Shown here: piece by piece, positions 1 through 13,576 of the stretch
Layout: each line of letters opens with the position of its first letter
Position numbering within the stretch: position 1 is the first letter of the stretch
Sequence record: MN850645.1
Reading direction: 5' to 3' (one strand)
DNA from: Escherichia phage outra
Length of the DNA: 64,000 nt
Notes under the pieces: generated by a model
What the model saw: only the letters and a program-made list of their open reading frames with translations
Database searches by the model: none
What the model was told of the DNA's origin: nothing
Position numbers and translations under genes: made by a program

Positions 1-1
1 T

Positions 2-208
2 ATGATGATACCTGGTTGTACTTCTGGTAGAGGTGTAACGAGTAAAGTATTAGTTGGTGGTGTTGATGCTCGTGAAATTGATCGTGTCAACAGTGATCCT
101 AATTCAGTAAATGGTTTAGGTGGTGTTGGTAGTGTAGATCGACACACGAGAAATATCAAGTATGCCAGAAACTATGGCCCCATTGGTTACTACAGAAGGG
201 ATAAATAA
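2..208 (+). CDS. 3' end of a gene that starts upstream of the window (probably virion-related); partial
   Basis: Open frame from the window edge to TAA at 206-208; the stop overlaps the next ATG (TAATG), indicating coupling with the structural operon. Confidence 0.35.
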   Translation: MMIPGCTSGRGVTSKVLVGGVDAREIDRVNSDPNSVNGLGGVGSVDRHTRNIKYARNYGPIGYYRRDK

Positions 209-696
209 TGAAATGTGAGATCACACGTGGCGATGATATGTCGTTAGATGAATACTTTAGTAAAATGCTGGCTCTAGATAATATAGAAATAGATGCTGGT
301 TTTCTTACTGCTGTTCGCCATCCAGAATCAGATCTCACTATCCCTGCAATTGCTGCCATACAACAGTTTGGTAATGAAACAAACAATACTCCTGCACGTC
401 CGTTTTTAACGGACGGTGCAGTCCACGCCAGTAAAGAAATACCTAAGCATTTTGATGAAGTGTTTAGAAATTATTTACTTCGTGGAAGGGGTTTAGCTGC
501 CTTTGAACCTATTGCAAAAGTTTCACGAGAATCTATTGCTAAAGCGATTGCTCTGCAACGTTATAGACCGCTATCTCCTGTGACTATTAAAATCCGTAGA
601 GATAAAGGTAACTACTCTTCTCATATTCTTATTGATACTGGACACTTAATTAACAGTATTGAATCAGAAATCAAGAAGGGTCGTTCTAAAAAATAA
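208..696 (+). CDS. hypothetical virion morphogenesis protein (head-tail joining region)
   Basis: 162 aa ORF coupled to the upstream gene, located just before neck/sheath genes; no motif recognised. Confidence 0.45.
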   Translation: MKCEITRGDDMSLDEYFSKMLALDNIEIDAGFLTAVRHPESDLTIPAIAAIQQFGNETNNTPARPFLTDGAVHASKEIPKHFDEVFRNYLLRGRGLAAFEPIAKVSRESIAKAIALQRYRPLSPVTIKIRRDKGNYSSHILIDTGHLINSIESEIKKGRSKK

Positions 697-697
697 C

Positions 698-726
698 TTG
701 CAATAAGTCTGTTTTTGATGTATACT
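698..726 (+). promoter_or_regulatory. candidate sigma70-like promoter (TTGCAA-17 nt-TATACT)
   Basis: Hexamers at 698-703 and 721-726, immediately upstream of the RBS of the gene at 741. Confidence 0.4.
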
Positions 727-740
727 AAAAAGGAGATACA

Positions 741-1157
741 ATGCTATTAGACCAATTTACTCTCCTTGATCTAACAACGTATCAGGGTCGTAAAAGAACC
801 TATGTTCAAGATCCTGATTCGCCAATTTCCAATATGGGTAATACAGTAGCATACGAAGACTTTACAATAGAGGCTGCAAGTTTGCAACCAATATCAGGTA
901 GAACACTTCAAGCACTGCCAGAAGGATACAGATCTAAGGCACAATATAGCTTCTGGACAAAAACAGAAATCAGAGGCATCCAGCAAGGATCAGATCAATT
1001 ATCTGACCAAATACTAATAGATGGACAATGGTTTTCCATTTATTCTTTGAAAGACTGGACAAGAACATCTTTCTTAAGACACACACATTGTGTTGCTATT
1101 CTAGATGACCAGAATAACACCTATTCATATTCTGAGGAGGGTGGTAATTTTGGCTAA
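741..1157 (+). CDS. hypothetical structural protein (neck / tail completion candidate)
   Basis: 138 aa ORF with RBS AAAAGGAGA 7 nt before the ATG; position upstream of the sheath gene. Confidence 0.45.
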   Translation: MLLDQFTLLDLTTYQGRKRTYVQDPDSPISNMGNTVAYEDFTIEAASLQPISGRTLQALPEGYRSKAQYSFWTKTEIRGIQQGSDQLSDQILIDGQWFSIYSLKDWTRTSFLRHTHCVAILDDQNNTYSYSEEGGNFG

Positions 1158-1806
1158 TATCTATGAACAAATTGAATTGTATGAAAATACGATATTATTA
1201 AATATCGCTAAGTTCTTACAAAGACTAGTGGGGCTTCCGGTTTATGTTATGGATAAACCATTTGTTAAACCAACAACCCCATATCTGACATTACGTATTG
1301 TATCATCTGATGATTCAGGTGGTTGGTCACAAAAATATTCTTTTAGTGAAGATGCGTTTTCATATCTAATGGACAATAAGTATGAAATAGAACTTATGGC
1401 TTTTAGAGGAAGACCAATGACACTTTTAAGTTATGTTCTTGCGGCACTTCGTGGTGCAGATGAATTAAAATACCAGTATCTTTATTCCAAAGGTATTAGC
1501 TTTCTATCTGCAACAAATGTTGCACAAGCTAACACTGTTCTGGATGGAGATAAAACTGAACAAAGAGCGAGAATATTTCTTACATTCAATACTACGATGG
1601 TTATTGAGGATTTAGTAACTACCGAAATTGAAGCAATTAATATGAACATTCATTCGTTCAGAGATGATTACGATGATCCTACTCCAATAGATCTTCCTTT
1701 GGATAAGATTTACATTGTTGCTCACAGAAGTAAAACTTATTACTTTACGACGACTGATGATGGATCATTAATTAAGTATATCCCAACGGATAATTCATTG
1801 GAATAA
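1150..1806 (+). CDS. hypothetical structural protein (tail completion / sheath-proximal candidate); probable TTG start
   Basis: The ORF track starts at ATG 1105 with no RBS; an in-frame TTG at 1150 sits 9 nt after a strong GAGGAGG (1134-1140). Overlaps the end of the previous gene. Confidence 0.4.
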   Translation: MANIYEQIELYENTILLNIAKFLQRLVGLPVYVMDKPFVKPTTPYLTLRIVSSDDSGGWSQKYSFSEDAFSYLMDNKYEIELMAFRGRPMTLLSYVLAALRGADELKYQYLYSKGISFLSATNVAQANTVLDGDKTEQRARIFLTFNTTMVIEDLVTTEIEAINMNIHSFRDDYDDPTPIDLPLDKIYIVAHRSKTYYFTTTDDGSLIKYIPTDNSLE

Positions 1807-1826
1807 AGTTTCTAACAGGAGCATAA

Positions 1827-3233
1827 ATGGCAACTTTTCGTGATAAGGTAGTTTCCGTAACCCTTACCTACGGTGCTACTTCAATTAGTGAAACACAGTT
1901 TGATATCCCTCTAATTCTTACAGGGCATAACGTTACTGGCAATCTTGTAGATTATTTCACTTCTTCAGACGCACTTCTGCAAGCAGGTTTTGGCACTGCC
2001 GATCCAGCTTATAAAATGGCAAAACTACTATTTGACGGTCTGTTCGCACCAGAACAAGTTATCGTCGGTAAGCGTGATGTTTCTAAAACAACTCTAACTC
2101 CAGTAGTTGAAGATAGTGCAACTTACGTTATCACTATTAAAGCAAATTCAAAAAGCAAGGACTTCAAGTTTGTTGCCGATGATACTGCAACTGCTCAAGA
2201 GATTGTTGTTGGTTTAACAGAAATGATCAACGCAGACGTAGTGTATAAAGAATTTTTCACTGTGTCAAACGATGGTAGTGTTATCACTGTAACCCCAGTT
2301 GCAGGTAAATACGCTACTATGGATAGTTCAGGATTCACAACTAACGTAGAATATGCAAATGATATCTTAGAAGATATTGCTAAAATTGCAGACTATGAAA
2401 ACAGTTGGTTCTGGTTACTATCTGATTCTCACGCAGAACAAGATATTATCGATCTAGCAGGTTATGTAGAAGAGCACGATAAAGTGTATTTCTTCTCTAC
2501 CTCACAACCAGGTGTTCTAACTAAAGAAGAAGATAACATTCTAGAACGCTTAGGTGATATGGGCTACAATAACACTTGTATGGCATTGTGGATGACTAAC
2601 GCTGACACAGTGTTCCCAGAGGCTGCTGTAGTTGGTTCTATCTGCTCTGCAACACCAGGTACTACTACCCTGCATGGTAAAACCCTTGTTGGTATCGAGA
2701 TTGAAAAACTTGGTCAGACAGCAGAAAACTTTATCGTTCAACAGAATGGTAATATTTACCGTAAAGAACACGGTGTTCTGTTCTACCGTGATGGCTTCAT
2801 GGTTAGTGGTTTCTATGTTGACTATGTGGTACACGCTCTGTGGTTCAAAGCTCGCGTAGAAGAATCTCTGTTCGCTCTATTCAAACAGCAATCTATGCTT
2901 GGTAGTGGTGTTAGAGCAACTTCTGCTGGTCTTGCTTTGATTCGTCAAGCTGTTACTGCAAACCCAATCCAAGTAGGTATTAACAATGGTTCTATTGCCA
3001 ATGAGGTAGTAACTTCAGAGGAAACAGGACTTCTGGTAAGCCTTAAACCTACTATCTATATCCCATCTCGTGCAGATATGACTGATGCTCAAATCAATGC
3101 ACGTTTGGTTGATGGTATGGTTATTGAATACGTATATGCTGGATTCTTCCACTATGTTAAAGTGCAGGTAAACGTTCTGACGAACCGCACTGCAAATAGC
3201 CAGAATTCCAATAGCTCTACTGTATCTTCATAA
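1827..3233 (+). CDS. tail sheath protein
   Basis: 468 aa, RBS ACAGGAG; size, composition and position directly upstream of a ~160 aa tube gene are typical of contractile-tail sheath proteins; followed by a hairpin. Confidence 0.8.
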   Translation: MATFRDKVVSVTLTYGATSISETQFDIPLILTGHNVTGNLVDYFTSSDALLQAGFGTADPAYKMAKLLFDGLFAPEQVIVGKRDVSKTTLTPVVEDSATYVITIKANSKSKDFKFVADDTATAQEIVVGLTEMINADVVYKEFFTVSNDGSVITVTPVAGKYATMDSSGFTTNVEYANDILEDIAKIADYENSWFWLLSDSHAEQDIIDLAGYVEEHDKVYFFSTSQPGVLTKEEDNILERLGDMGYNNTCMALWMTNADTVFPEAAVVGSICSATPGTTTLHGKTLVGIEIEKLGQTAENFIVQQNGNIYRKEHGVLFYRDGFMVSGFYVDYVVHALWFKARVEESLFALFKQQSMLGSGVRATSAGLALIRQAVTANPIQVGINNGSIANEVVTSEETGLLVSLKPTIYIPSRADMTDAQINARLVDGMVIEYVYAGFFHYVKVQVNVLTNRTANSQNSNSSTVSS

Positions 3234-3241
3234 TTAAAAGC

Positions 3242-3259
3242 AGCGGGGGAAACCCCGCT
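3242..3259 (+). terminator. GC hairpin after the sheath gene (AGCGGGG-GAAA-CCCCGCT); weak terminator or attenuator
   Basis: 7 bp stem with GAAA loop 9 nt after the sheath stop; poor T-tract, so likely partial termination. Confidence 0.45.
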
Positions 3260-3291
3260 TATATGAAAAGTAGTATAAAAGGAGATCCACT

Positions 3292-3771
3292 TTGGATAAA
3301 ATGCTTACTGGCGTAATGGCCTATGATCCTTCTCAAGTAATCCTGTCTTTGGGTGGTTGGGAACCTTGGGGTTTCGCCGCAGATACCAAAATTGTTATTA
3401 ACAAAACTAACGATATCATCAACCCATATTCAGGTACTGATGGTGACGTTTCCTTGGCTCTTAGTCGTAACCGTTTAGGTACGCTAACAATGTCACTGCA
3501 ACGTACTTCCCCAGCAAACGAAGTTCTTGCTGCTTATGCACAAACGATGTATTCTACTCGTCAAGTAGCATTTAGCGTATATCTAGAAGACCCTCGCGGA
3601 TATTATATCAGCACAATTGGTTGGATTCAAAGCCAACCGGACGACACTATTGGTGAAACTATTCAAGAAAACCAATGGGTAATTGGTCTTAAAGATGCAA
3701 GCCTACTTCGTTCTACTGTAGGTGTTGGTGTTAACGCACTTAACTCTATTAGTGCTCTAACTATTCAGTAA
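3292..3771 (+). CDS. tail tube protein
   Basis: 159 aa ORF immediately after the sheath gene; TTG start 7 nt after AAAAGGAGA; followed by a strong rho-independent terminator. Confidence 0.65.
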   Translation: MDKMLTGVMAYDPSQVILSLGGWEPWGFAADTKIVINKTNDIINPYSGTDGDVSLALSRNRLGTLTMSLQRTSPANEVLAAYAQTMYSTRQVAFSVYLEDPRGYYISTIGWIQSQPDDTIGETIQENQWVIGLKDASLLRSTVGVGVNALNSISALTIQ

Positions 3772-3774
3772 TAA

Positions 3775-3800
3775 AAAGGGCAGAAATGCCCTTTATTTTT
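3775..3800 (+). terminator. rho-independent terminator after the tail tube gene
   Basis: 8 bp stem AAAGGGCA-GAAA-TGCCCTTT followed by ATTTTT. Confidence 0.7.
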
Positions 3801-3814
3801 AAAGAGAGGAAATA

Positions 3815-4297
3815 ATGGAACAACAAAAAGATAATACTATTGCAAAATTTGCTCGTCCAGAAGTAATGGTTGAAATTGATCTGGATGAAGGACGCAGTGT
3901 AAAATTTAGAGTTCTCAAGTGGAGTCCAACTAAAGTTTTTGAAAGGATTCCAGAACTAGGTAGTGTACTAGCTGTTCCTATGACAATGTATAATACTGCT
4001 CTTATGTCAGCAGATGAAGATCTAGAAGCTCGTATTGCTATGGCGCTGATCCAGTTATTCAGTGGTCTGGAAGAAAAAAACTTAGCCGCATTCTTACGTA
4101 AAATTTTAGATGAAGTTTACACAGAAGCAGGTCATAGTGTTTCCGATAATTTTGATGAATTGTTTTTTGCTCACCCAGAATTAGTTGTTGATTTAGCTGC
4201 AAAAGTTCTTGAGGTGAACTATGCCCCTTTTTTCAAACGAGGTTTCGGAAAACTGTTGACCCAATTTCAAGGAATAGAGACTCTAGCGAAGAGTTAA
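3815..4297 (+). CDS. tail assembly chaperone (G-like, short product)
   Basis: 160 aa acidic protein between the tube and tape measure genes; RBS AGAGAGG; contains the slippery heptamer T_TTT_TTC at 4228-4234. Confidence 0.6.
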   Translation: MEQQKDNTIAKFARPEVMVEIDLDEGRSVKFRVLKWSPTKVFERIPELGSVLAVPMTMYNTALMSADEDLEARIAMALIQLFSGLEEKNLAAFLRKILDEVYTEAGHSVSDNFDELFFAHPELVVDLAAKVLEVNYAPFFKRGFGKLLTQFQGIETLAKS

Positions 4298-4572
4298 GTC
4301 CGGCAATTAAATCAGCAATTGAAATTGCCTCACAAACCCTTAGCTTGACATGGTATGAAGTAATTCTTTGTAAGGTAGTTAAGAATACCTCCGAAACCTT
4401 GTCCTCGTTAGATAATTACGGTGTAGATTATCTACTTAAAATTTATGAATATTTAACATTTGAAGACTATGTACAAGATCTTCACGTTAAAGATGCGGAT
4501 ATTAAACGTGGTCAACAGAGAACAATAAGAGAACTGGATACGGCTATGAAAAAATTAATTCCAGATTCATAA
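3815..4572 (+). CDS. tail assembly chaperone, predicted -1 frameshift fusion product (GT-like)
   Basis: The -1 frame is open from 4213 to 4572 and overlaps the end of the 0-frame ORF; slippery TTTTTTC at 4228-4234 lies in the overlap; conserved G/GT arrangement upstream of tape measure genes. Confidence 0.5.
4228..4234 (+). promoter_or_regulatory. putative -1 programmed ribosomal frameshift slippery site (T TTT TTC)
   Basis: X_XXY_YYZ heptamer in the 0 frame of the chaperone ORF, inside the window where the -1 frame is open. Confidence 0.5.
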
Positions 4573-4591
4573 GTAATACGGAGGATTACCC

Positions 4592-6571
4592 TTGTTAGAA
4601 ATTAACACTTCCAAGATTAAGAATACAGTAACGTTTACTGTAGATAAAGACAGTTTAAAAAATACTAAAGACGCAATTAAAAACCTTAAAACTTTTACAG
4701 AATCTATTGAACCATCTTTAAATATGACTAAAATGCGTCGTCAGTTTAAAAGTATGGAAGAGTATGCTAAAAGAATAAGGCAGCAAATGTCAGGTCTTGG
4801 CGGCGGTAATCCTCCACCAATCCCACCAACCGGAGGTTCAAGTGGTGGTGGAAAAGGAGGAAGTGGCAGAGGTGGTTCTGGATCTTCTGGAGGACGTAAG
4901 ACACCGGAGGAAAGAGCCGCAGAAGCCGCCGCTAAACGTGCAGCACTTGCTAATATGAAGCAAGACGATTTTAGTTTTAAAGCTATGCCTTTTACAAAAG
5001 CAGACAGTAGAATTCTAGAAAAATCTAAAAAGATTGTAGAAGAAACTGTTGAACTTTATCGTAAAGGCGTGATTACTAGCCAACAAATGAACAATACTTT
5101 GGCTAGACAGTTAGAAGAACTACGCAGATCTCATAGAGAGAAGAATGCACAACTTCTTGATGAAGAGAGAGCTAGACGTAGAATTGCCCGTCTGCAAGAA
5201 GCAGAAGATAAAAGAAGACAGCGTGTTCGAGAAAGAGAAAGAAAGGAGTTCGAACGTCAGCAAAGGAGGGAAAAAGAAGCAAGACAGCGAGATAGACAAC
5301 GTAAGTTATCTGGTGTAGGTAATGCTGCTATTGCTCTTAACCCTGCTATGTTTGGTGCTGCTCTTTTAGGTGCTGGTTTATATCAAGGCATAAGCAAAAT
5401 AGCTGAAAGCATCACAACTGCGGCAGAACGTATTAATATGGTTAGTAAAGGTGGTCAGAACGTACAGGTAAACCCTAATGCAATTTTAACAATGCGTACT
5501 TGGGGTGAGATGAACGGTGTAGACTCTGCCAGCATTATTAAAGCCATTGACAATATTAAAGACGTTCGTGAACGTTTAGGTAATACTGTACTCCACTCTG
5601 AATTTGATGAAAAATCAGGTAAATGGAAAGGTGGAGATAGTGGTATTAATGAAATCATGAACCAATTTGGTTGGTCGAAAGAAGATGTTGCTAAATTCCA
5701 GAACAGACCTTTAGACTTTGTTCAAGCACTTGTTAATGAAGGTCAAAAAAGAGGAATGAACTCCGCGCAAATTGGTCGTTTGATGGAAAACCTTGGTGAT
5801 GACTTAATGCACTACCAACGTATGTTTTTGGATAACGGTAAAGAGTACATGAAAGTCTTGGATATGTTAAAAAATTCAGGAGCCACTCTTAACGATGAAA
5901 ACATCAAAGCAGCACAAGATTTTGTTAAGCTAAGAGCACAAATTAGTGCAGCAGGAGAAGGTTTTACCAATAACTTACTTATAGGATTTATGGATGGTTT
6001 AAAATCTGCACCAGATTTTGCAGAGAATATGAAAACTTTCCAAGAAGCTGCTCGTGGTCTTGGTGAAATGTCTGGTAGTATTGTAAGTAGCCTTGCAAAA
6101 ATTGCGAAATATTTCCTTGATTTTTCAAATAAGGTTGGGCCAAAAAACAATACTAAAGAAGCTGTAAGAGATTATTATAATGGTACGCAGTATGGGTACG
6201 ATGCACAGGTTGGTGGTAATCCTTGGGCTTATTGGCCTATTGGAAGAGATCAACATCTGCCTGAAAATCAACCTTTAGGTAACTTTGATAGTAGTTTCTT
6301 AACTAGTGCCTTAAATCCAAGTGCTTCTAGTATTGGTTACAATAGACCTGATTTAACAGCATCTATGCTAACACCACGCCAAGGTGTTCCAGTACCGTTA
6401 AGTGTAGAGAATACGGTTGTTATCCCAGACAACGCATTCCAGATTAATGTTATTCCAGATGGCTATGGTTTTAGTAATTATCTAGATGCGACAATGAATA
6501 CCAGTTTTAGTAACTTCTCACAAGGTTTAACTCTTCAGTTAAGCAGTGGACAATCTTCTACTGGTGGTTAA
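4592..6571 (+). CDS. tail tape measure protein
   Basis: 659 aa; TTG start 6 nt after GGAGGA; Gly/Ser-rich low-complexity segment, long Arg/Glu-rich coiled coil, hydrophobic central segment; located after the chaperone frameshift pair. Confidence 0.7.
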   Translation: MLEINTSKIKNTVTFTVDKDSLKNTKDAIKNLKTFTESIEPSLNMTKMRRQFKSMEEYAKRIRQQMSGLGGGNPPPIPPTGGSSGGGKGGSGRGGSGSSGGRKTPEERAAEAAAKRAALANMKQDDFSFKAMPFTKADSRILEKSKKIVEETVELYRKGVITSQQMNNTLARQLEELRRSHREKNAQLLDEERARRRIARLQEAEDKRRQRVRERERKEFERQQRREKEARQRDRQRKLSGVGNAAIALNPAMFGAALLGAGLYQGISKIAESITTAAERINMVSKGGQNVQVNPNAILTMRTWGEMNGVDSASIIKAIDNIKDVRERLGNTVLHSEFDEKSGKWKGGDSGINEIMNQFGWSKEDVAKFQNRPLDFVQALVNEGQKRGMNSAQIGRLMENLGDDLMHYQRMFLDNGKEYMKVLDMLKNSGATLNDENIKAAQDFVKLRAQISAAGEGFTNNLLIGFMDGLKSAPDFAENMKTFQEAARGLGEMSGSIVSSLAKIAKYFLDFSNKVGPKNNTKEAVRDYYNGTQYGYDAQVGGNPWAYWPIGRDQHLPENQPLGNFDSSFLTSALNPSASSIGYNRPDLTASMLTPRQGVPVPLSVENTVVIPDNAFQINVIPDGYGFSNYLDATMNTSFSNFSQGLTLQLSSGQSSTGG

Positions 6572-6576
6572 TGCAT

Positions 6577-6606
6577 AAAGCCTCGCTTCGGCGGGGCTTT
6601 TTATTT
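6577..6606 (+). terminator. rho-independent terminator after the tape measure gene
   Basis: 10 bp stem (one G-U pair) AAAGCCTCGC-TTCG-GCGGGGCTTT followed by TTTTTATTT. Confidence 0.7.
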
Positions 6607-6609
6607 GTC

Positions 6610-6639
6610 TTGACAAAGAGTTGTTTTTCGTGATAAAAT
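6610..6639 (+). promoter_or_regulatory. sigma70-like promoter with extended -10 (TTGACA-18 nt-TGaTAAAAT)
   Basis: Perfect -35 TTGACA at 6610-6615; TGa plus TAAAAT at 6631-6639; about 45 nt upstream of the gene at 6687. Confidence 0.6.
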
Positions 6640-6686
6640 GAGTGATAAGGGAGAATGTTTCTTATCACATTAAGAGGTAAAATTAT

Positions 6687-7397
6687 ATGGCAGCAAACAC
6701 TCCAGAACAACACGTTCAAGCGGTTTATAAAGCGGAACAAGATATAAATTCTACAAAAAACACAAATAACTCTGCCTCTACTGTGAAAGGGGAGAATGGT
6801 TTTTGTATTTTAGCAAGTGTTTACAATAGTGCAAGTGATCAATATATTCAAAACTACCAAGCTATAGTTTTTGATGCTGTTCCAAATATCGGTGTAAAAC
6901 GTCAAGCAGATGTTACTAGCTATCCTGTAGAAAATGGTGCTAATGTATCGGATCACGTTCAAGTTAAGAATAATACTTTCTCTTTATCAGGAATGATTAC
7001 AGAGACACCTGTAAGATTGATGCGAGATATGCTATATAGTGCTGGTGTTAACGGTACTCGTATCAGTCAAGCAATTACTTATTTAGATAAAATATTTGAT
7101 GAAAGACAGCCTATCATCTTAATAACAGAACATAAAGTTTATGAGAATGTTATTTTGAAAGGTATTTCTTATGAATATCAAACAGAATATGCAATGCAAT
7201 TTGACTTGGAATTTGAACAAGTAAGATTAGTTTCTTACGGGGAAACAAATGCTATTGCACTTAAGACAAAACCAAATAAGAATACAGGTGTTAAAAACAA
7301 GAAAGGTACTAGTCCAGATGCTGATTTGGATGCAAGAACAGGGAAAGCAACTGGTACAGAACATCTTAGTGATCACAGTGCAGATGGTAAAAAATAA
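6687..7397 (+). CDS. hypothetical tail/baseplate protein (first gene after tape measure)
   Basis: 236 aa; RBS AAGAGG; preceded by a terminator and a sigma70-like promoter (6610-6639). Confidence 0.4.
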   Translation: MAANTPEQHVQAVYKAEQDINSTKNTNNSASTVKGENGFCILASVYNSASDQYIQNYQAIVFDAVPNIGVKRQADVTSYPVENGANVSDHVQVKNNTFSLSGMITETPVRLMRDMLYSAGVNGTRISQAITYLDKIFDERQPIILITEHKVYENVILKGISYEYQTEYAMQFDLEFEQVRLVSYGETNAIALKTKPNKNTGVKNKKGTSPDADLDARTGKATGTEHLSDHSADGKK

Positions 7398-7408
7398 GGA
7401 GAAAATTT

Positions 7409-7828
7409 TTGGCTATTTCATCTTATTCAAAGATCAGTAGAAGCACATCTAATAGTGGCTACAATGCAGTATTTATTGATCGAAATTTAGGTTATTATTC
7501 TTGGTACTTACCTACAGAACAGTACCCAGACCAAACATATACAGTAACTCTCGATGGAGTAGATTATGATATACGTTTGAGATGGAATACAAGAGATCAA
7601 GCGTGGCAAATGCAATTAGGGTTATCAGGAGACAACCCTAGTGTAACTTTTAAAGTAACCAATGGTTTAGATCTTCTAGAACCATATAAGTATATAGAAT
7701 CTGTGCCGGATGGTCAACTTTATTTGGTAGATACTGTTAAAATAAATGGTAGACCTAATTACTATGACACAGGTGTAGATAAAAGATTTGCTTTGGTTTA
7801 TATCGACGCTCTTCCATATCAAGCATGA
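7409..7828 (+). CDS. hypothetical baseplate protein
   Basis: 139 aa; TTG start 6 nt after AAGGAGAAA; within the baseplate gene run. Confidence 0.4.
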   Translation: MAISSYSKISRSTSNSGYNAVFIDRNLGYYSWYLPTEQYPDQTYTVTLDGVDYDIRLRWNTRDQAWQMQLGLSGDNPSVTFKVTNGLDLLEPYKYIESVPDGQLYLVDTVKINGRPNYYDTGVDKRFALVYIDALPYQA

Positions 7829-7844
7829 TAAAAGGAGTTTTTAA

Positions 7845-8855
7845 ATGGCAGAAGAAAGAAATTACACAAAAGCTCCTGCACCCAATCTAAACAGAGCATA
7901 CAAACTGTTAATAGGTACAGCTACTAATACTAAAGAAAAAAGGACAAAAAATTCCTCTTTCAAATCTACAGTAGACTTAGATACTAAACTAGGGGATGCT
8001 AAAAAATCAACCCCTAATTTGTATGTTATTACGGAGCACCAAATATCTTTCACAATAAGAAAAGATAATAATAAAGATCCTAATCAAGCCGAGATAACTA
8101 TTTATAACCTAAGTGATGATACTGTTAATTATATTAACAAAGGTATTCGTAACAACTTGGCTGTTGCTTTGGCAGTAGGTTATGAAGGTCAAGAGTTAAT
8201 TATGATCTTTAAGGGAACGGTGCAATGGGTGAGTGATACTTTTAACAATACAGACAGACGTACAGTGTTACATTGTCTGGATGGTGGTATTAACATCTCC
8301 GAAGCAAGGACAAGCAGAAGTTATCCGAAAGGTACAAAAGTAAGTAAGGTTGTTAAAGATTTAGTTAAAGATTTAGGTACTACAGAAGGTAATATTCACG
8401 TAGACACAGAGAAAACTTTATCATCTGCAACAGCTATGTGTGGTAACACATCACATTACTTAGAAAGTATCTGTAAAGGTATTGATCATAATGTGTCAAT
8501 ACAAGATGGATCTGTTTACGTAACACCAAGATCACAAATGTCTAGTGCAAGATGCGCATATATTAGTGCAGAAACAGGTTTAATTGGTAGTCCAGAACCT
8601 TTCCACAACGATATTAAACCGACACAAAAAGTAACTAAATCTTCTAAGAAAGCTAAAAAGCCTACTGATGGTGTTAAGTTCAGATGTGAAATGAACGGTG
8701 CTATCTTACCAGAAAAAACTGTTTGGCTCAAGAGTCATAACTATGATGGTGGTTTTAAGGTGGTGTCTGTTGTTCATACAGGAGATAGGGAAGGTAAAGA
8801 CTGGACAACTGAAGTAGAGTCTGTATCTGTATCTGCAATTATTAAGAAGGGCTAG
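7845..8855 (+). CDS. baseplate hub protein candidate (gpD / Mu gp44-like position)
   Basis: 336 aa; RBS AAAAGGAG; lies immediately upstream of the spike gene as in Mu/P2-type baseplate operons; assignment by gene order only. Confidence 0.45.
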   Translation: MAEERNYTKAPAPNLNRAYKLLIGTATNTKEKRTKNSSFKSTVDLDTKLGDAKKSTPNLYVITEHQISFTIRKDNNKDPNQAEITIYNLSDDTVNYINKGIRNNLAVALAVGYEGQELIMIFKGTVQWVSDTFNNTDRRTVLHCLDGGINISEARTSRSYPKGTKVSKVVKDLVKDLGTTEGNIHVDTEKTLSSATAMCGNTSHYLESICKGIDHNVSIQDGSVYVTPRSQMSSARCAYISAETGLIGSPEPFHNDIKPTQKVTKSSKKAKKPTDGVKFRCEMNGAILPEKTVWLKSHNYDGGFKVVSVVHTGDREGKDWTTEVESVSVSAIIKKG

Positions 8856-8857
8856 AA

Positions 8858-9595
8858 ATGGATGCTTTAAATTTTGTAACAGCAATCCGTGGATTAATCA
8901 ACGAACAAGTTGCGGAAGTACATACATCTTTACCTGTAAGGGTAATTGGTGTAGATTATGGATCTAAGACAGTAACTTTAGAATCTATCGTAAAAAATAC
9001 CAGATCTACTGAAGATGAAATAGATTACCCAACATTCCACGATGTTCCTTTTATGGTAAATGGTGGTGGTACAGGTAGAATTTCATTTCCAATTAAAGCA
9101 GGAGATATTGGTGTTGTTGTCTTTTCAGAAAGAGATCCGTCGAATGCTTTCCAGACAGACGGAGATACAGCCAGCAGCGGAACATTAATTCAACCTTGTG
9201 GTTTGTATCCAGCCTGTTTTATTCCTAAGATAGCAACAGCTACAGATTCTTCTGAAGAAGTAGACTCTGAAAAAGTTGTTATCTCAAATAATAAGCAAAC
9301 TTACGCTTCGTTTGATCCTAACGGTAATATATCTGTGTACAACACACAAGGTATGAAAATAGATATGACACCAAACAGTATCGTTCTTACTGATGCAGGA
9401 GGAGGAAAACTTACACTGCAAGGTGGGACTATGACATATAAAGGTGGTACTGTAAATTTAAACGGTTTAACAATCACACCTGACGGTCGTATGAAAGATA
9501 GTGGTGGCATTGGTTTACACACACATACACACCCTGTACGCGGTGTTGAAACTGGTGGTAGCACTGTTACTTCCGACAAACCAAATGGAGGTTAA
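8858..9595 (+). CDS. baseplate central spike protein (gpV / gp5-like)
   Basis: 245 aa; Gly-rich beta-repeat C-terminal half ending in GLHTHTHPV, an HxH metal-binding apex motif known from phage spike tips. Confidence 0.6.
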   Translation: MDALNFVTAIRGLINEQVAEVHTSLPVRVIGVDYGSKTVTLESIVKNTRSTEDEIDYPTFHDVPFMVNGGGTGRISFPIKAGDIGVVVFSERDPSNAFQTDGDTASSGTLIQPCGLYPACFIPKIATATDSSEEVDSEKVVISNNKQTYASFDPNGNISVYNTQGMKIDMTPNSIVLTDAGGGKLTLQGGTMTYKGGTVNLNGLTITPDGRMKDSGGIGLHTHTHPVRGVETGGSTVTSDKPNGG

Positions 9596-9598
9596 CAG

Positions 9599-10234
9599 AT
9601 GGGAATACCATTTGATTTAAAACTTGATGGTTCTAACGATTTAGTAATGGTGGATGGTGATTTAACACTAACCACAACTAAAAGTGAAATTGCAGCACAG
9701 ACGCTTGGAATAACACTTAGAACTTTCCGTGGAGAATGGTTCCTCAACTCTAATTTTGGGGTTCCATATCTGCAAGAGATTATTGGTGTTGCCAAGAAGA
9801 AAGAGATTGTTGATCGCATTTTCTTATCAACTATCGCAAGTAATGTTTATATAGATAATATCAATTCCTACACATCCTCTTATGATAGAGATGATAGGTA
9901 TTACTCAATGAATGTTACTGTTACAGTTGGTGAACAAGTTGTTAGTGCTCTATTCAGTACACAGCCGTCTGAAGAATATATCTATCCAGAAGCTGGTGAT
10001 GATAATGCAGCAATCACTTGTGAAGCATTTGAAATTGTTGAATCTGCAAATAGACTCTATCGCTTTATTAACATTGTTGGTCTTCCTAAAGATACTTATT
10101 CTACTTGGTGGAATGAGTGGTCTAACGAGGCATTGATTGAAAAATACCTTGTTAACGAAGCCAATAAAGGTCTTGCAACCAATTACAACTATGCTATAAC
10201 AGCAACAATGGGAGCTACAAATAATAATGGCTGA
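9599..10234 (+). CDS. baseplate wedge protein, gp25 / GPW-like N-terminal domain
   Basis: N-terminal region (DGDLTLTTTKSEIAAQTLGITLRTFRGEWFLNSNFGVPY) resembles the conserved gp25/W core; carries a ~90 aa C-terminal extension. Confidence 0.55.
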   Translation: MGIPFDLKLDGSNDLVMVDGDLTLTTTKSEIAAQTLGITLRTFRGEWFLNSNFGVPYLQEIIGVAKKKEIVDRIFLSTIASNVYIDNINSYTSSYDRDDRYYSMNVTVTVGEQVVSALFSTQPSEEYIYPEAGDDNAAITCEAFEIVESANRLYRFINIVGLPKDTYSTWWNEWSNEALIEKYLVNEANKGLATNYNYAITATMGATNNNG

Positions 10235-10700
10235 TTTAACTACAATCAAGGTGTCTGATCTACCTGTAACAACATCTGTTTCAGACACAGATTATTTTGT
10301 AACAGATCAATCAGGCATCACTAAGAAAACATCCTTACGTGTTCTTCTTGCGGGTGCTGGTGTTACACGAAATCGTCTTTCTGCAAGGGGTACTGTTACA
10401 AATACCCTAGCTTTAGATATTAGCACGGCAGAGTATTTCTCTGCCACTTTATCTAGTCCAACTTGCAGTATTTCATTTAGTAATGTTCCAGTTACAACTA
10501 ACATTGTTCAAAACTTTACGCTATCCCTACGTCAAGGCAGTGGAGCAAATAAAGTAACGTGGCCTCAATCTGTTAAATGGAGTTTTGGTCGCGCTCCTGT
10601 TTTGAGTTATAAGCAGGGAGCTACAGATATTTTTGAATTTGTTAGTTATGATAATGGAGCTACCTGGATAGGTAGTTTAGTGATGGCAGGAGTGATTTAA
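10227..10700 (+). CDS. hypothetical baseplate protein
   Basis: 157 aa ORF overlapping its neighbours by 8 nt and 1 nt. Confidence 0.4.
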   Translation: MADLTTIKVSDLPVTTSVSDTDYFVTDQSGITKKTSLRVLLAGAGVTRNRLSARGTVTNTLALDISTAEYFSATLSSPTCSISFSNVPVTTNIVQNFTLSLRQGSGANKVTWPQSVKWSFGRAPVLSYKQGATDIFEFVSYDNGATWIGSLVMAGVI

Positions 10701-13576
10701 TGTCAAGAATTAAGCACAGAATTGACAATGTTTTTCAACTGATCGATGGACATATTCAGTTCTTAGATCGTAATACAGGTTTAACTGTAGATCCTACAGT
10801 GCAACACTATGTATTAAACCCACAAAACGTTCTAGCTAATAACAGACACTTTATAAACTGGACTGCTCAAGAAGGGCAACCAAACGGGGATGCTACAACA
10901 GAAGGTCAATCCGTGCTTATTCTTGGTTGCGCTTATGCATACCTAGCTTCCGGCGATACAAAGTATTTAGACTCTGCTAAAAAATATTGGCAAGCCTATA
11001 TAGATTACTTCTTTGGTGGTCAACCTATCCCAGATCCGCCAGCAAAGTATCGCCCTAACTGGATTATTAACGGTAAAGAACCACGTCTTGCACATTATCC
11101 TCTTACAGATGATGGCTACCCTACACACGGAGGTTTTAAGGGTAGCTTAATGACGTGGACTAACGGTAGAACAGTTATTCCTCATGGTGCTCCACATTGG
11201 GGAGAATACCTTGATAAAGCATGGTTTGCTTTTAATGGTAATCTAGGATGGAACTCTGTAAACGCTACAGTATATGCTGTTAATGCAGATGGTACAACAG
11301 ATTGGTCTAAGAAGGGAGATCAATGGGATGTTGATTGGATCATTGATCGTCTAGGACGTAAAGTTGATTGGGATGGAAATATCTTAGAAGAAGGTTTTCC
11401 AACATCTCAATACGGAACAGTTCAACTAAAAAATACTTCTGTAAATGGTACATATAAATTTAACTATGCGACTTGTAACCCTGTTGAACACGGTGGTTAT
11501 TTAATGGAGCGTAACACTATGTGGCATAACAGACCAGTTAACGTTCCGGTAGAAATGGGCTTTCAGGATAATGCGTCAGATGCCGAAACTTGGTGGTGTG
11601 ATGCTAATTACCTGATGTACCAAATTACAGGAGAAAGAAAATATTGGCTATGCTGGCAGTCTTCACTGTTAGTGTGTCAAGATTATTCAAACATTGATAT
11701 GTTTGATAAATTCTTCCGTAAGTCTACATATGCAACTATCCCGTTTACAGATGGCATCTCTTACGATTATTCGTATCCATCTACAGCAATACCTAAATAT
11801 TCAAGAGATACTTTAGGTTATATTGTTATTAGACAAGATGTTGCTGCTCAAACAACATTAGAACAGCAATCTATTTGGTTTAAAGTTGATCAGAACTCTA
11901 AGTTACGAGTTCAGTTCCAAGGCGTAGATGACGCAGGACATGGTATTCTTTTCCGTCCAGAATTGGAGCTAAGTAAGACCAAAGATGAAAATAACACAGT
12001 AACTTACCGTTGTGGCTTACCATTAGGTACAGCTAATATGACAAGCATGGATATTCCATTATCCAGCTTTATGAGAAGTACCCCTCCGAATGGTGGAACA
12101 TATATTATCGCAGATCCGCGAATTATTGTTGACTGGGGTGACAATACTGTGGTACAATTTAAGTATGTAACAGGTATTGCTGGAACTAATAATGACCAGA
12201 TTGTTACTGCATCAATGGATACGGATGGTGGTGTCACTGTTGGTTTTTGGTTAACTCCTACATCAAAAGCTAATGTTAAGTCTATTACATATAGAACATA
12301 TGAAGATGACTTTAACATGACTATCACGGATGCTCAAGGTTGGAGATGGTGGGCTATGCTGCCTAAAACGCAAGGAGCATGGAGTACGAAGACTTTATCA
12401 GCTTCTGATTTTCAGTTAAGTGCTTACCAGCCTAATCATCCAGATACAGATCCTAAACCTTCAGCAATAAATCTTACTGCGGTAGATCAGGTAAATTTAG
12501 TTCTTGATACGGCTCCTGTCAATGGTTTAACAGGAACAATAGATTTCTATTGTATTAATGATGTACCTGAAAGATATTCGTCATCTTCTGGTGATGATTA
12601 TACCATGTACTTCCGTATTACTGTACAGGCTTCAAGTCCTCATACTGCTAAGTTAGGTGATTGTACTATTATTGACTATAAGTTAAATAGTCTTAATTAC
12701 ACACCAGGAATAATTCCATTCTCTAATATCAGTGACCCAAACACTGCATTATACGATGGATGGCGTGGTATTCCATACCCAGGATACCAGTATCCTTCCT
12801 TATACTGCTTCGCAGGTAGGGATATTGATTGGACACGTTTAAACAACAGTATTGATTTCTTGTATGATGCTCAAATGTGGTTTTATAACACGTTTGATCC
12901 TGTGATGCCTGGGCCTATGGCACAAGCATATGTGTGGGATCGTTGGGATGCAAGAAAATACGGTGAACCTAATACGTTTACAATGAAACACTGGAATGAA
13001 AAAGCGTGGGATGGTTATGAAGCTCGTGCATTCTACTGTGCTTGTCATGCTGTATACGAACTTGTACAAAGAGGAGAAACACCTCCTGAAAAACTAGTAA
13101 CTGTTTGTAAAAATTGGATCAACTACCTTAAATGGTTCCAAGACAATAATGATGGAAGAACACCAACTATCTTTAACCCAGATGGTACAGTTCTTGCGCC
13201 TATAGATGACTTTACTAGTCATATGTCTGCACTGTTTATGGCGGGTTGTTCAATCATGGGCTTGGCAGGTTATGATTCACAAATTCCAAACATTGGTATT
13301 GTAGCAGACAGATGTTTTGATCTGATTCAGCAAAACTATATTGTGCTCTCCCCTAACCATCCAATGAATGGTTGCTGGAGTGTTGCACCGCGTCCAGATT
13401 CAGATAACGGAATGTTCTTTGGTTTCCATGCTGGAGAACTATTACGTGGTTTTGGTTTATATGCTTTATATCGTAAACTAAATCCTCAAAACGCCTTACC
13501 AATTTTGGACAATAGTAACATACCGACACTAACTGTTCTAACTATGAATGATATTAGTGTTGATGTAACCAAATAA
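10700..13576 (+). CDS. large baseplate wedge / tail structural protein (958 aa), possibly carbohydrate-interacting
   Basis: Start coupled to the previous stop (TAATG); Trp/Tyr-rich; inserted between the W-like and J-like genes; function not recognisable by eye. Confidence 0.45.
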   Translation: MSRIKHRIDNVFQLIDGHIQFLDRNTGLTVDPTVQHYVLNPQNVLANNRHFINWTAQEGQPNGDATTEGQSVLILGCAYAYLASGDTKYLDSAKKYWQAYIDYFFGGQPIPDPPAKYRPNWIINGKEPRLAHYPLTDDGYPTHGGFKGSLMTWTNGRTVIPHGAPHWGEYLDKAWFAFNGNLGWNSVNATVYAVNADGTTDWSKKGDQWDVDWIIDRLGRKVDWDGNILEEGFPTSQYGTVQLKNTSVNGTYKFNYATCNPVEHGGYLMERNTMWHNRPVNVPVEMGFQDNASDAETWWCDANYLMYQITGERKYWLCWQSSLLVCQDYSNIDMFDKFFRKSTYATIPFTDGISYDYSYPSTAIPKYSRDTLGYIVIRQDVAAQTTLEQQSIWFKVDQNSKLRVQFQGVDDAGHGILFRPELELSKTKDENNTVTYRCGLPLGTANMTSMDIPLSSFMRSTPPNGGTYIIADPRIIVDWGDNTVVQFKYVTGIAGTNNDQIVTASMDTDGGVTVGFWLTPTSKANVKSITYRTYEDDFNMTITDAQGWRWWAMLPKTQGAWSTKTLSASDFQLSAYQPNHPDTDPKPSAINLTAVDQVNLVLDTAPVNGLTGTIDFYCINDVPERYSSSSGDDYTMYFRITVQASSPHTAKLGDCTIIDYKLNSLNYTPGIIPFSNISDPNTALYDGWRGIPYPGYQYPSLYCFAGRDIDWTRLNNSIDFLYDAQMWFYNTFDPVMPGPMAQAYVWDRWDARKYGEPNTFTMKHWNEKAWDGYEARAFYCACHAVYELVQRGETPPEKLVTVCKNWINYLKWFQDNNDGRTPTIFNPDGTVLAPIDDFTSHMSALFMAGCSIMGLAGYDSQIPNIGIVADRCFDLIQQNYIVLSPNHPMNGCWSVAPRPDSDNGMFFGFHAGELLRGFGLYALYRKLNPQNALPILDNSNIPTLTVLTMNDISVDVTK

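What the first reader, a model, noticed from the sequence alone, without database searches (positions are those of the whole stretch)
4213..4572. Programmed -1 frameshift in the tail assembly chaperone pair (slippery TTTTTTC at 4228-4234)
The reading frame -1 relative to the chaperone ORF is open from 4213 to 4572 and overlaps the last 28 codons of the 0-frame ORF. The heptamer T_TTT_TTC sits in the 0 frame inside this overlap. This is the conserved G/GT-type arrangement upstream of tape measure genes. The ORF track shows the second frame only as a separate TTG-initiated ORF at 4345-4572, which has no plausible independent RBS.
Basis: partly seen in the sequence, partly recalled or inferred. 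Interest (0 to 1): 0.5.

Follow-up and report, generated by a model that had tools for sequence, protein, structure and literature searches.

The report
Unannotated tail-chaperone −1 frameshift, phi92-like phage
This phi92-like E. coli phage almost certainly makes a long form of its tail assembly chaperone by a ribosome slipping back one base at TTTTTTC; this is a well-known phage trick that databases have missed in this phage group, where the second half is listed as a separate small gene.

Summary
The window is a phi92-like myophage (99% identity). Gene order is sheath, tube, tail assembly chaperone (TAC, 3815-4297, Pfam Phage_TAC_15), a -1 frame open 4213-4572, then tape measure (4592-6571). 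T_TTT_TTC lies at 4228-4234 in the 0-frame phase.

- **Conservation:** every relative examined across Stephanstirmvirinae and Vequintavirinae, down to about 27-30% protein identity, keeps NNT_TTT_TTC and a -1 frame open 100-128 codons. This holds for 14 GenBank lineages, 5 metagenomic lineages and 32 IMG/VR loci. Neighbouring synonymous sites vary freely.
- **Distant homologues:** other slippery heptamers sit at the same spot, A_AAT_TTT in a Vibrio phage and G_GTT_TTT in Pseudomonas phage KPP10.
- **Independent start:** the -1 ORF has no conserved start codon or ribosome-binding site. The annotated TTG start cuts a conserved helix.
- **Stimulators:** there is no downstream RNA structure. An upstream Shine-Dalgarno-like GAGGTGA, 10 nt 5' of the heptamer, is a plausible stimulator.
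- **Prior knowledge:** the homologous site is already annotated as a joined CDS in FelixO1-like phages, but in none of the phi92/rV5-type records inspected.

Verdict: a real, ordinary G/GT-type frameshift and an annotation gap rather than new biology. No experimental proof exists.

The parts
3815..4297 (+). Short (0-frame) tail assembly chaperone, TAC-N, 160 aa; equals phi92 gp132
   Evidence: ORF list and translation. Pfam Phage_TAC_15 at 80.8 bits (cut-off 22) and phrog_3840 'tail assembly chaperone' at E 4e-54. phi92 annotation.
4211..4217 (+). Shine-Dalgarno-like GAGGTGA, 10 nt upstream of the heptamer; candidate dnaX-style upstream stimulator (inferred)
   Evidence: A 7-nt match to the anti-SD complement. 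Matches of 7 nt or more occur at 0.4% of window positions. A GGAG/GAGG core lies 9-14 nt upstream in 16 of 20 lineages and also in Moogle. It is encoded by the conserved L-E-V codons, so it is partly explained by protein conservation.
4225..4234 (+). Slippery tract C_CCT_TTT_TTC. It contains T_TTT_TTC at 4228-4234 (conserved) and the overlapping C_CCT_TTT at 4225-4231 (found in the P-F-F lineages: the Stephanstirmvirinae records and metagenomic/IMG-VR relatives)
   Evidence: Sequence read. Phase check and conservation. Both motifs fall in the high-efficiency E. coli class H_HH.U_UU.Y (PMC4066793).
4234..4572 (+). -1 frame extension (112 codons plus stop): RFR motif, about 18-residue disordered linker, then a helical C-domain. 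phi92 'gp133' (4345-4572) is its 3' fragment
   Evidence: Translation. Protein conservation across 15 lineages. phrog_16039 and phrog_10409 hits, the latter starting upstream of the TTG. AlphaFold model with pLDDT 80-92 over residues 23-108, including helix 23-36 that lies before the TTG start.
3815..4572 (+). Predicted long form TAC-NC, join(3815..4234,4234..4572), 252 aa (140 + 112), junction ...VLEVNYAPFF|QTRFRK...
   Evidence: Constructed. A tblastn search with this fusion finds two-piece (two-frame) matches covering 80% or more of it in 290 of 368 phage records.
4234..4297 (+). Dual-coding overlap (0-frame tail of TAC-N and start of the -1 extension)
   Evidence: GGT TTC is invariant at nucleotide level because it encodes G-F in frame 0 and R-F-R in frame -1.
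4592..6571 (+). Tape measure protein gene (context; TTG start with GGAGG RBS), 19 nt after the -1 frame stop
   Evidence: phrog_16051 at 1323 bits. phi92 gp134 annotation.

Best explanation
A programmed -1 ribosomal frameshift of the lambda G/GT type.

Most ribosomes translate the chaperone ORF to its stop at 4295-4297 and make the 160-aa short form (TAC-N). A minority slip back one base while decoding T_TTT_TTC (4228-4234). The two tRNA-Phe re-pair from UUU-UUC to UUU-UUU. In this lineage a slip on the overlapping C_CCT_TTT gives the identical product. These ribosomes continue in the -1 frame to 4572 and make a 252-aa long form (TAC-NC, junction ...NYAPFF|QTRFRK...). The long form adds a flexible linker and a helical C-domain of about 85 residues.

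By analogy with lambda gpG/gpGT, the two forms together coat the tape measure protein and recruit tube subunits during tail assembly, and they are absent from virions.

- **Shown:** sequence anatomy, homology, and family-wide nucleotide-level conservation of the site and of the -1 ORF.
- **Inferred:** that slippage actually occurs, its efficiency, stimulation by the upstream SD-like GAGGTGA (there is no downstream structure), and the division of labour between the N and C domains.
For: - **Context:** sheath, tube, TAC, -1 ORF, tape measure.
- **Heptamer phase:** correct.
- **Heptamer conservation:** NNT_TTT_TTC is invariant in 14/14 GenBank lineages of Stephanstirmvirinae and Vequintavirinae. 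Other invariant Phe columns of the same alignment mix TTT/TTC 7:7 and 5:9. It is also invariant in 5/5 metagenomic lineages at 34-61% identity and in 32/32 IMG/VR loci, 26 of them distinct.
- **Open -1 frame:** 96-141 codons in every locus (runs off the contig end in the shortest), whereas the +1 frame is closed.
- **Alternative heptamers at the homologous place:** A_AAT_TTT in Vibrio phage PWH3a-P1 and G_GTT_TTT in Pseudomonas phage KPP10, each followed by the same RFR motif in frame -1.
- **-1 product conserved as protein** from the slip site onward.
- **No independent start:** no conserved start or SD. Gene callers choose at least five different starts. In Hena1 and KP12 the first start codon lies 80-84 codons into the extension.
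- **Homologous annotated case:** the site in FelixO1-like Moogle (same Pfam family, hhalign probability 95.8%) is annotated as a joined CDS whose end matches the -1 frame exactly. It is widely annotated as paired chaperones in that clade.
- **Motif efficiency:** U_UU.U_UU.C and C_CC.U_UU.U are efficient shifters in E. coli (PMC4066793).
Against: - There are no experimental data for this phage group: no junction peptide, reporter assay or ribosome profiling.
- No downstream stimulatory structure was found. Folding z-scores were -1.5 to +1.5 and RNAalifold predicted 0 pairs.
- The upstream SD-like element is missing in 4 of 20 lineages.
- No natural single-ORF fusion homologue was found.
- The IMG/VR scan was seeded on the peptide spanning the site, so only codon choice and the -1 ORF are independent evidence there.
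- A single U insertion by RNA polymerase at the T6 run would give the same protein.
Confidence: 0.85

Rival explanations
1. Transcriptional slippage. RNA polymerase inserts one extra U at the T6 run (4228-4233), producing a subpopulation of mRNAs in which the two frames are fused. The protein product would be identical to the -1 frameshift product.
For: The site is a homopolymer run, and an extra U gives exactly ...APFFQTR... (sequence). Runs of 7 or more T are absent from the + strand of the window, and only one A7 occurs. This suggests long homopolymers are costly.
Against: - T6 is shorter than the tracts of about 8-9 nt or more known to give efficient slippage with bacterial RNA polymerase (own knowledge).
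- 33 other T6 runs and 29 A6 runs sit on the + strand of the window, including one inside this gene at 4163, with no sign of avoidance.
- The run is always in the X_XXY_YYZ phase (NNT TTT TTC), never NNV TTT TTT, in all 51 loci checked for codon choice.
- Distant homologues use A_AAT_TTT and G_GTT_TTT, which are ribosomal slippery heptamers but poor transcriptional slippage tracts.
Confidence: 0.06
2. Two separate genes, as annotated in phi92 (gp132 and gp133). The -1 ORF would be translated independently from TTG 4345 as a 75-aa protein.
For: GenBank and RefSeq records annotate it this way. phrog_16039 is built from such 72-aa calls.
Against: - There is no SD match upstream of TTG 4345. Real neighbouring genes have GAGG/GGAGG.
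- The start position is not conserved, and called lengths range from 64 to 84 aa with at least five start columns.
- Several records call no gene there at all.
- Protein conservation and a confidently predicted helix (residues 23-36 of the extension) lie upstream of the TTG.
- The -1 frame stays open back to the heptamer in every relative.
Confidence: 0.05
3. The -1 ORF is a non-expressed remnant or a sequencing or assembly artefact of an originally single gene.
For: None specific. This is only the generic possibility for any frame break.
Against: The same frame break, at the same place, appears in more than 290 independently sequenced genomes. The downstream frame is conserved at protein level at 27-30% identity.
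Confidence: 0.02

Closest known systems
Lambda gpG/gpGT and the conserved tail assembly chaperone frameshift of long-tailed dsDNA phages (Xu, Hendrix and Duda 2004, cited in PMC10885494; own knowledge)
   Same: Two overlapping ORFs lie immediately upstream of the tape measure gene. The second is in the -1 frame without its own start. [quoted passage not shown] As in lambda, no downstream structure is needed. The expected output is a major short form and a minor long form.
   Different: The heptamer differs (T_TTT_TTC here, G_GGA_AAG in lambda). The host virion is a contractile-tail myovirus. There is no detectable sequence similarity to gpG or gpT. The C-domain has no characterised structural match.
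FelixO1-like phages (Mooglevirus, Felixounavirus): 'tape measure chaperone' pair annotated with a joined, frameshifted CDS, e.g. Citrobacter phage Moogle CPT_Moogle67/68
   Same: Same Pfam family (PF21822; Moogle 72.2 bits) and hhalign probability 95.8%. Same peptide context L-E-[VA]-N-[YF]-G-x-F-F, identical T_TTT_TTC heptamer and upstream GGAGG. The -1 extension ends exactly where the annotated join ends.
   Different: About 19% identity. The genome is smaller (88 kb) and the extension shorter (93 codons). The frameshift is annotated in many records there but in none of the phi92/rV5-type records inspected.
Vandenendeviridae and Andersonviridae TAC -1 frameshift with an invariant GTTTTT motif (Pseudomonas phage Adele paper, PMC12846349, Dec 2025)
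   Same: The paper makes the same argument: a -1 frame uninterrupted across all alleles, with a conserved poly-T motif at the 3' end of TAC-N. KPP10 shows G_GTT_TTT at the homologous L-N-F-G-S-V-F position, followed by RFR in frame -1. The Vequintavirinae site TGTTTTTTC contains GTTTTT.
   Different: The frameshift passages retrieved from that paper covered only those two families. They name Vequintavirinae and Stephanstirmvirinae only as relatives. The heptamer here is a canonical X_XXY_YYZ. The upstream SD-like element is not at the same spacing in KPP10.
E. coli dnaX (SD-like element 10 nt upstream of A_AAA_AAG plus a downstream hairpin) and T7 gene 10A/10B (G_GUU_UUC); own knowledge, reviewed in PMC5009743
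   Same: The SD-like sequence sits at a 10-nt spacing, as in dnaX. The U-rich Phe-Phe slippery site resembles that of T7 gene 10.
   Different: There is no downstream hairpin. The SD-like element is not universal among relatives. Its stimulatory role is untested.

Membership tests
G/GT-type tail assembly chaperone programmed frameshift | Two overlapping ORFs located between the major tail/tube gene and the tape measure gene | tested here: met
   Tube 3292-3771, TAC 3815-4297, -1 ORF 4213-4572, TMP 4592-6571.
G/GT-type tail assembly chaperone programmed frameshift | Slippery sequence in the overlap, in the phase required for tandem tRNA re-pairing | tested here: met
   T_TTT_TTC at 4228-4234 and C_CCT_TTT at 4225-4231, both in phase. 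The motifs are efficient in E. coli (PMC4066793).
G/GT-type tail assembly chaperone programmed frameshift | Second ORF lacks its own functional translation start | tested here: met
   No SD match at TTG 4345. No conserved start among 19 lineages. Inconsistent gene calls.
G/GT-type tail assembly chaperone programmed frameshift | The arrangement (frame relation plus slippery site) is conserved among diverged relatives | tested here: met
   All loci examined. Alternative heptamers occur in the most distant homologues.
G/GT-type tail assembly chaperone programmed frameshift | Two protein products (abundant short, rare long) made in vivo, both required for tail assembly | not testable with these tools
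   No proteomic or genetic data found. The rV5 virion proteomics paper does not mention the chaperone.
Pfam PF21822 Phage_TAC_15 | HMM score above the curated gathering threshold | tested here: met
   80.8 bits against a cut-off of 22, covering residues 29-144. All 45 database homologues carry PF21822.
dnaX-type stimulated -1 frameshift | Shine-Dalgarno-like sequence about 10-14 nt upstream of the heptamer | tested here: inconclusive
   GAGGTGA with a 10-nt spacer in the window. A GGAG/GAGG core is present in 16/20 lineages and absent in 4. It is confounded with conserved L-E-V codons.
dnaX-type stimulated -1 frameshift | Downstream stem-loop or pseudoknot 5-9 nt after the heptamer | tested here: not met
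   MFE z-scores from -1.5 to +1.5 in the window and relatives. RNAalifold predicts 0 conserved pairs. No Rfam hit above threshold.
Transcriptional slippage recoding | Long homopolymeric tract (typically 8-9 nt or more) whose reading phase is irrelevant | tested here: not met
   The tract is T6. Its phase is strictly conserved. Distant homologues lack a homopolymer. The length threshold is from own knowledge.

The most novel reading that the evidence does not exclude
The whole recoding cassette is embedded in one conserved peptide motif, L-E-V-N-Y-G-x-F-F. The cassette comprises the SD-like GGAGG/GAGGTGA, a 10-13 nt spacer and T_TTT_TTC. On this reading it has been kept as a 'frozen' unit across FelixO1-like phages, Vequintavirinae, Stephanstirmvirinae and unclassified metagenomic relatives. 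The upstream rRNA-mRNA pairing, rather than any downstream structure, would set the G:GT-like ratio. That would make it a natural, widely distributed dnaX-like SD-stimulated frameshift in phage tail genes.
Probability: 0.35. Interest if true: 0.4.

Novelty: new member of a known kind. Interest (0 to 1): 0.25.

Why it matters
- **Annotation:** phi92 gp133 and its counterparts in hundreds of phi92-like, phAPEC8-like and rV5-like genomes are probably not independent genes. These phages are widely used therapy and biocontrol candidates. The gp133-type ORF is probably the C-terminal part of a 252-aa frameshifted tail assembly chaperone. In some records the region is left as an unexplained 300-nt 'intergenic' gap.
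- **Consequences of correcting it:** genome annotation and orphan-gene counts improve, and phage engineers are warned not to disturb the TTTTTTC tract or the overlap.
- **Biology:** it extends one homologous frameshift site (Phage_TAC_15 family) over several myovirus families. It does not reveal a new mechanism.

Tried and rejected
I folded 41-, 66- and 100-nt windows after the heptamer in the window and four relatives, and ran RNAalifold on 14 lineages. Nothing rose above shuffled controls and there were no conserved pairs.
- **Rfam scan of 3700-4700.** Only sub-threshold hits: SraG at 36 bits against 50, on the terminator hairpin, and a CRISPR-DR model at 25 bits against 35.
- **Natural single-ORF long form ('Rosetta stone').** I searched the 5.8-billion-protein database. 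All 45 hits are short forms of about 160 aa.
- **PDB sequence search with TAC-N.** Nothing significant.
- **AlphaFold model of the -1 extension plus Foldseek against viral structures.** Only orthologous uncharacterised ORFs matched, so there is no functional clue.
- **+1 frame alternative.** The +1 frame closes within 7-52 codons in all loci.
- **Other in-frame heptamers in the overlap.** None in the window apart from the C_CCT_TTT/T_TTT_TTC pair.
- **Frameshift annotation in phi92/rV5-type records.** None among 18 regions opened and about 140 feature lists viewed.
- **Literature for phi92/rV5 plus frameshift.** No paper describes it.

Full report
**Identity of the window.** The region 3200-6600 is 99.0-99.5% identical to Escherichia phage phi92 and other Justusliebigvirus genomes of the Stephanstirmvirinae. 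The local gene order is:
- tail sheath, 1827-3233 (phrog_205);
- tail tube, 3292-3771 (phrog_280; Pfam PF11681, KPP10_Orf10);
- a 160-aa ORF, 3815-4297;
- tape measure protein, 4592-6571 (phrog_16051).

The 160-aa ORF scores 80.8 bits on Pfam PF21822 Phage_TAC_15 (cut-off 22) and E 4e-54 on phrog_3840 'tail assembly chaperone'. A terminator-like hairpin lies between tube and chaperone (3775-3794) and another follows the tape measure gene (6577-6600).

**Check of the observation.**
- The -1 frame is closed by TGA at 4210-4212. It is open from 4213 to the stop at 4570-4572 and overlaps the chaperone ORF by 85 nt.
- TTTTTTC occupies 4228-4234. The 0-frame codons are CCT TTT TTC, so the heptamer is T_TTT_TTC in the phase needed for tandem slippage.
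- A second in-phase heptamer, C_CCT_TTT (4225-4231), overlaps it. A slip on either gives the same protein...NYAPFF|QTRFRK....
- The +1 frame is closed after 7 codons.

Within this genome alone the heptamer is weak evidence. There are 91 in-frame XXXYYYZ heptamers in about 19,500 codons, which predicts about 0.13 per 28 codons. However, only this pair leads into a -1 frame that extends 30 or more codons beyond the 0-frame stop, and in-frame TTTTTTC is unique in the window.

**Comparative evidence.** A tblastn search with the predicted 252-aa fusion found 368 phage records. In 290 of them one place covers at least 80% of the fusion, and in the rows shown such matches come as two pieces in different frames. 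They span Stephanstirmvirinae, Vequintavirinae (rV5, CR8, SSE121, Hena1, Klebsiella and Enterobacter phages) and a Vibrio phage, down to 27-30% identity.
- In 17 sequenced regions the -1 frame is open for 117-141 codons and overlaps the chaperone ORF by 85-160 nt.
- All 17 enterobacterial-phage regions carry in-phase TTTTTTC at the homologous position. The Vibrio phage PWH3a-P1 instead carries A_AAT_TTT three codons upstream.
- In a codon alignment of 14 lineages the two Phe codons of the heptamer are TTT (14/14) and TTC (14/14), and the preceding codon always ends in T (CCT or TGT). Other invariant Phe columns mix TTT/TTC 7:7 and 5:9, and nearly every other conserved residue uses two or more codons.
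- Five further metagenomic lineages at 34-61% identity show the same C_CCT_TTT_TTC and an open -1 frame.
- So do 32 IMG/VR loci, 26 of them distinct. That scan was seeded on the peptide E[VIA]NY[GA][PC]FF, so only codon choice and the -1 ORF count as independent evidence there.

**The -1 product is a real protein.** Translations from the slip site align across 15 lineages. They share:
- an R-F-R motif straight after the shift, which explains the invariant GGTTTCG because it also encodes G-F in frame 0;
- a variable Gly/Ser-rich linker;
- a conserved C-domain of about 70-85 residues.

AlphaFold (19-sequence alignment, mean pLDDT 77, 80-92 over residues 23-108) predicts a disordered stretch at residues 1-18 followed by four helices. 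The first helix (residues 23-36) lies upstream of the TTG that phi92 uses as the gp133 start. Foldseek against viral models returns only orthologous uncharacterised ORFs.

**Independent initiation is unlikely.** TTG 4345 has no SD match, whereas the chaperone and tape measure genes have GAGG and GGAGG. No start codon is conserved among 19 lineages. In Hena1 and KP12 the first candidate lies 80-84 codons into the extension. Database gene calls for this ORF are 64-84 aa and begin at five or more alignment columns. Several GenBank records call nothing there.

**Stimulatory elements.**
- The 100 nt after the heptamer fold with z = -1.5 (17 of 200 shuffles fold as well).
- Shorter windows in the window and four relatives give z from -0.4 to +1.5.
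- RNAalifold on 14 lineages predicts no pairs, and Rfam gives nothing above threshold.

Upstream, GAGGTGA (4211-4217) is a 7-nt match to the anti-SD complement and sits 10 nt before the heptamer, the spacing known from dnaX (own knowledge). Matches this long occur at 0.4% of window positions. A GGAG/GAGG core lies 9-14 nt upstream in 16 of 20 lineages, including the Vibrio phage, and also in Moogle. It is encoded by conserved L-E-V codons and is missing in four lineages, so its role is plausible but unproven. In E. coli reporter work, U_UU.U_UU.C and C_CC.U_UU.U belong to the efficient class H_HH.U_UU.Y and shift above 0.1% without stimulators (PMC4066793). Lambda G/GT also works without a required downstream structure (own knowledge).

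**Relation to what is known.** The chaperone frameshift upstream of tape measure genes is a classic (Xu et al. 2004, cited in PMC10885494). More specifically:
- Citrobacter phage Moogle (FelixO1-like) has a chaperone in the same Pfam family (72.2 bits) that aligns to this family with hhalign probability 95.8%.
- Moogle carries ...LEANFGSFF... with GGAGG, 13 nt, then TTTTTTC. Its GenBank record annotates a joined CDS whose end coincides with the -1 frame stop.
- Many Felixounavirus and Mooglevirus records list 'tape measure chaperone (x2)'.
- A December 2025 paper argues for a conserved -1 frameshift with an invariant GTTTTT motif in Vandenendeviridae and Andersonviridae. It names Vequintavirinae and Stephanstirmvirinae as relatives, and the passages I retrieved do not analyse their chaperone locus (PMC12846349).
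- I confirmed that KPP10 has G_GTT_TTT at the homologous L-N-F-G-S-V-F position, followed by RFR in frame -1.
- None of the phi92-, phAPEC8- or rV5-type records I opened, nor the roughly 140 feature lists viewed, annotate the frameshift. No paper found describes it for these phages.

**Rival explanations.**
- Transcriptional slippage at T6 would give the same protein. It is disfavoured by the short tract, by 33 other T6 runs on the + strand of the window (one in the same gene at 4163), by the strictly conserved phase, and by the non-homopolymeric heptamers of distant homologues.
- Independent initiation and pseudogene or artefact readings are disfavoured as described above.

**Verdict.** It is an unannotated member of a known, homologous recoding site. 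It is useful for annotation and engineering of phi92/rV5-type phages but not surprising to a specialist. Interest is 0.25. The most novel surviving idea is an SD-stimulated, structure-free cassette frozen inside the L-E-V-N-Y-G-x-F-F motif across several myovirus families.

Noticed in passing
window 4074-4081: The only A7 run on the + strand of the window lies inside the chaperone gene and forms an in-phase A_AAA_AAC heptamer (4075-4081). A -1 slip there would dead-end at TAA 4099-4101 after 6 codons, giving a truncated product. It is probably incidental.
   Followed up: partly
window 3775-3794 and 6577-6600: A bidirectional terminator-like hairpin lies between the tube and chaperone genes, and a strong terminator follows the tape measure gene. 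This suggests attenuated read-through into the chaperone/TMP pair. The phage Paula record annotates terminators at the first site and just after the tape measure gene. A sub-threshold Rfam SraG hit (36 bits against 50, minus strand 3772-3897) overlaps the first hairpin.
   Followed up: partly
GenBank MG0656xx records (e.g. MG065639.1, hits H3-H6, H59, H61, H97-H98): About 20 records labelled 'Campylobacter phage' with host C. jejuni are 99% identical to phi92-like or rV5-like coliphage sequence over this region. The host labels look doubtful, pointing to contamination or mislabelling.
   Followed up: no
window 2778-2870 (= L001 1079-1171): The phi92 RefSeq record annotates a 'Hypothetical tRNA' inside the tail sheath gene. 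ARAGORN finds no tRNA anywhere in window 1-12000, so the feature is probably spurious.
   Followed up: yes
window, whole + strand: Homopolymers appear capped. There are 33 T6 runs but no run of 7 or more T, and 29 A6 runs but only one A7. This is consistent with selection against longer slippage-prone tracts.
   Followed up: no
window 62388: An in-phase C_CCA_AAC heptamer sits in a 94-codon ORF. The -1 frame stays open for 84 codons after it, about 21 codons beyond the 0-frame stop. I did not examine it further. C_CC.A_AA.C is not among the efficient E. coli motifs listed in PMC4066793.
   Followed up: no
L018 830-836 (Vibrio phage PWH3a-P1); L059 1224-1230 (Pseudomonas phage KPP10): Distant homologues of the same chaperone use different slippery heptamers at or next to the homologous position: A_AAT_TTT and G_GTT_TTT. 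Each has an open -1 frame and neither is annotated as a frameshift.
   Followed up: partly
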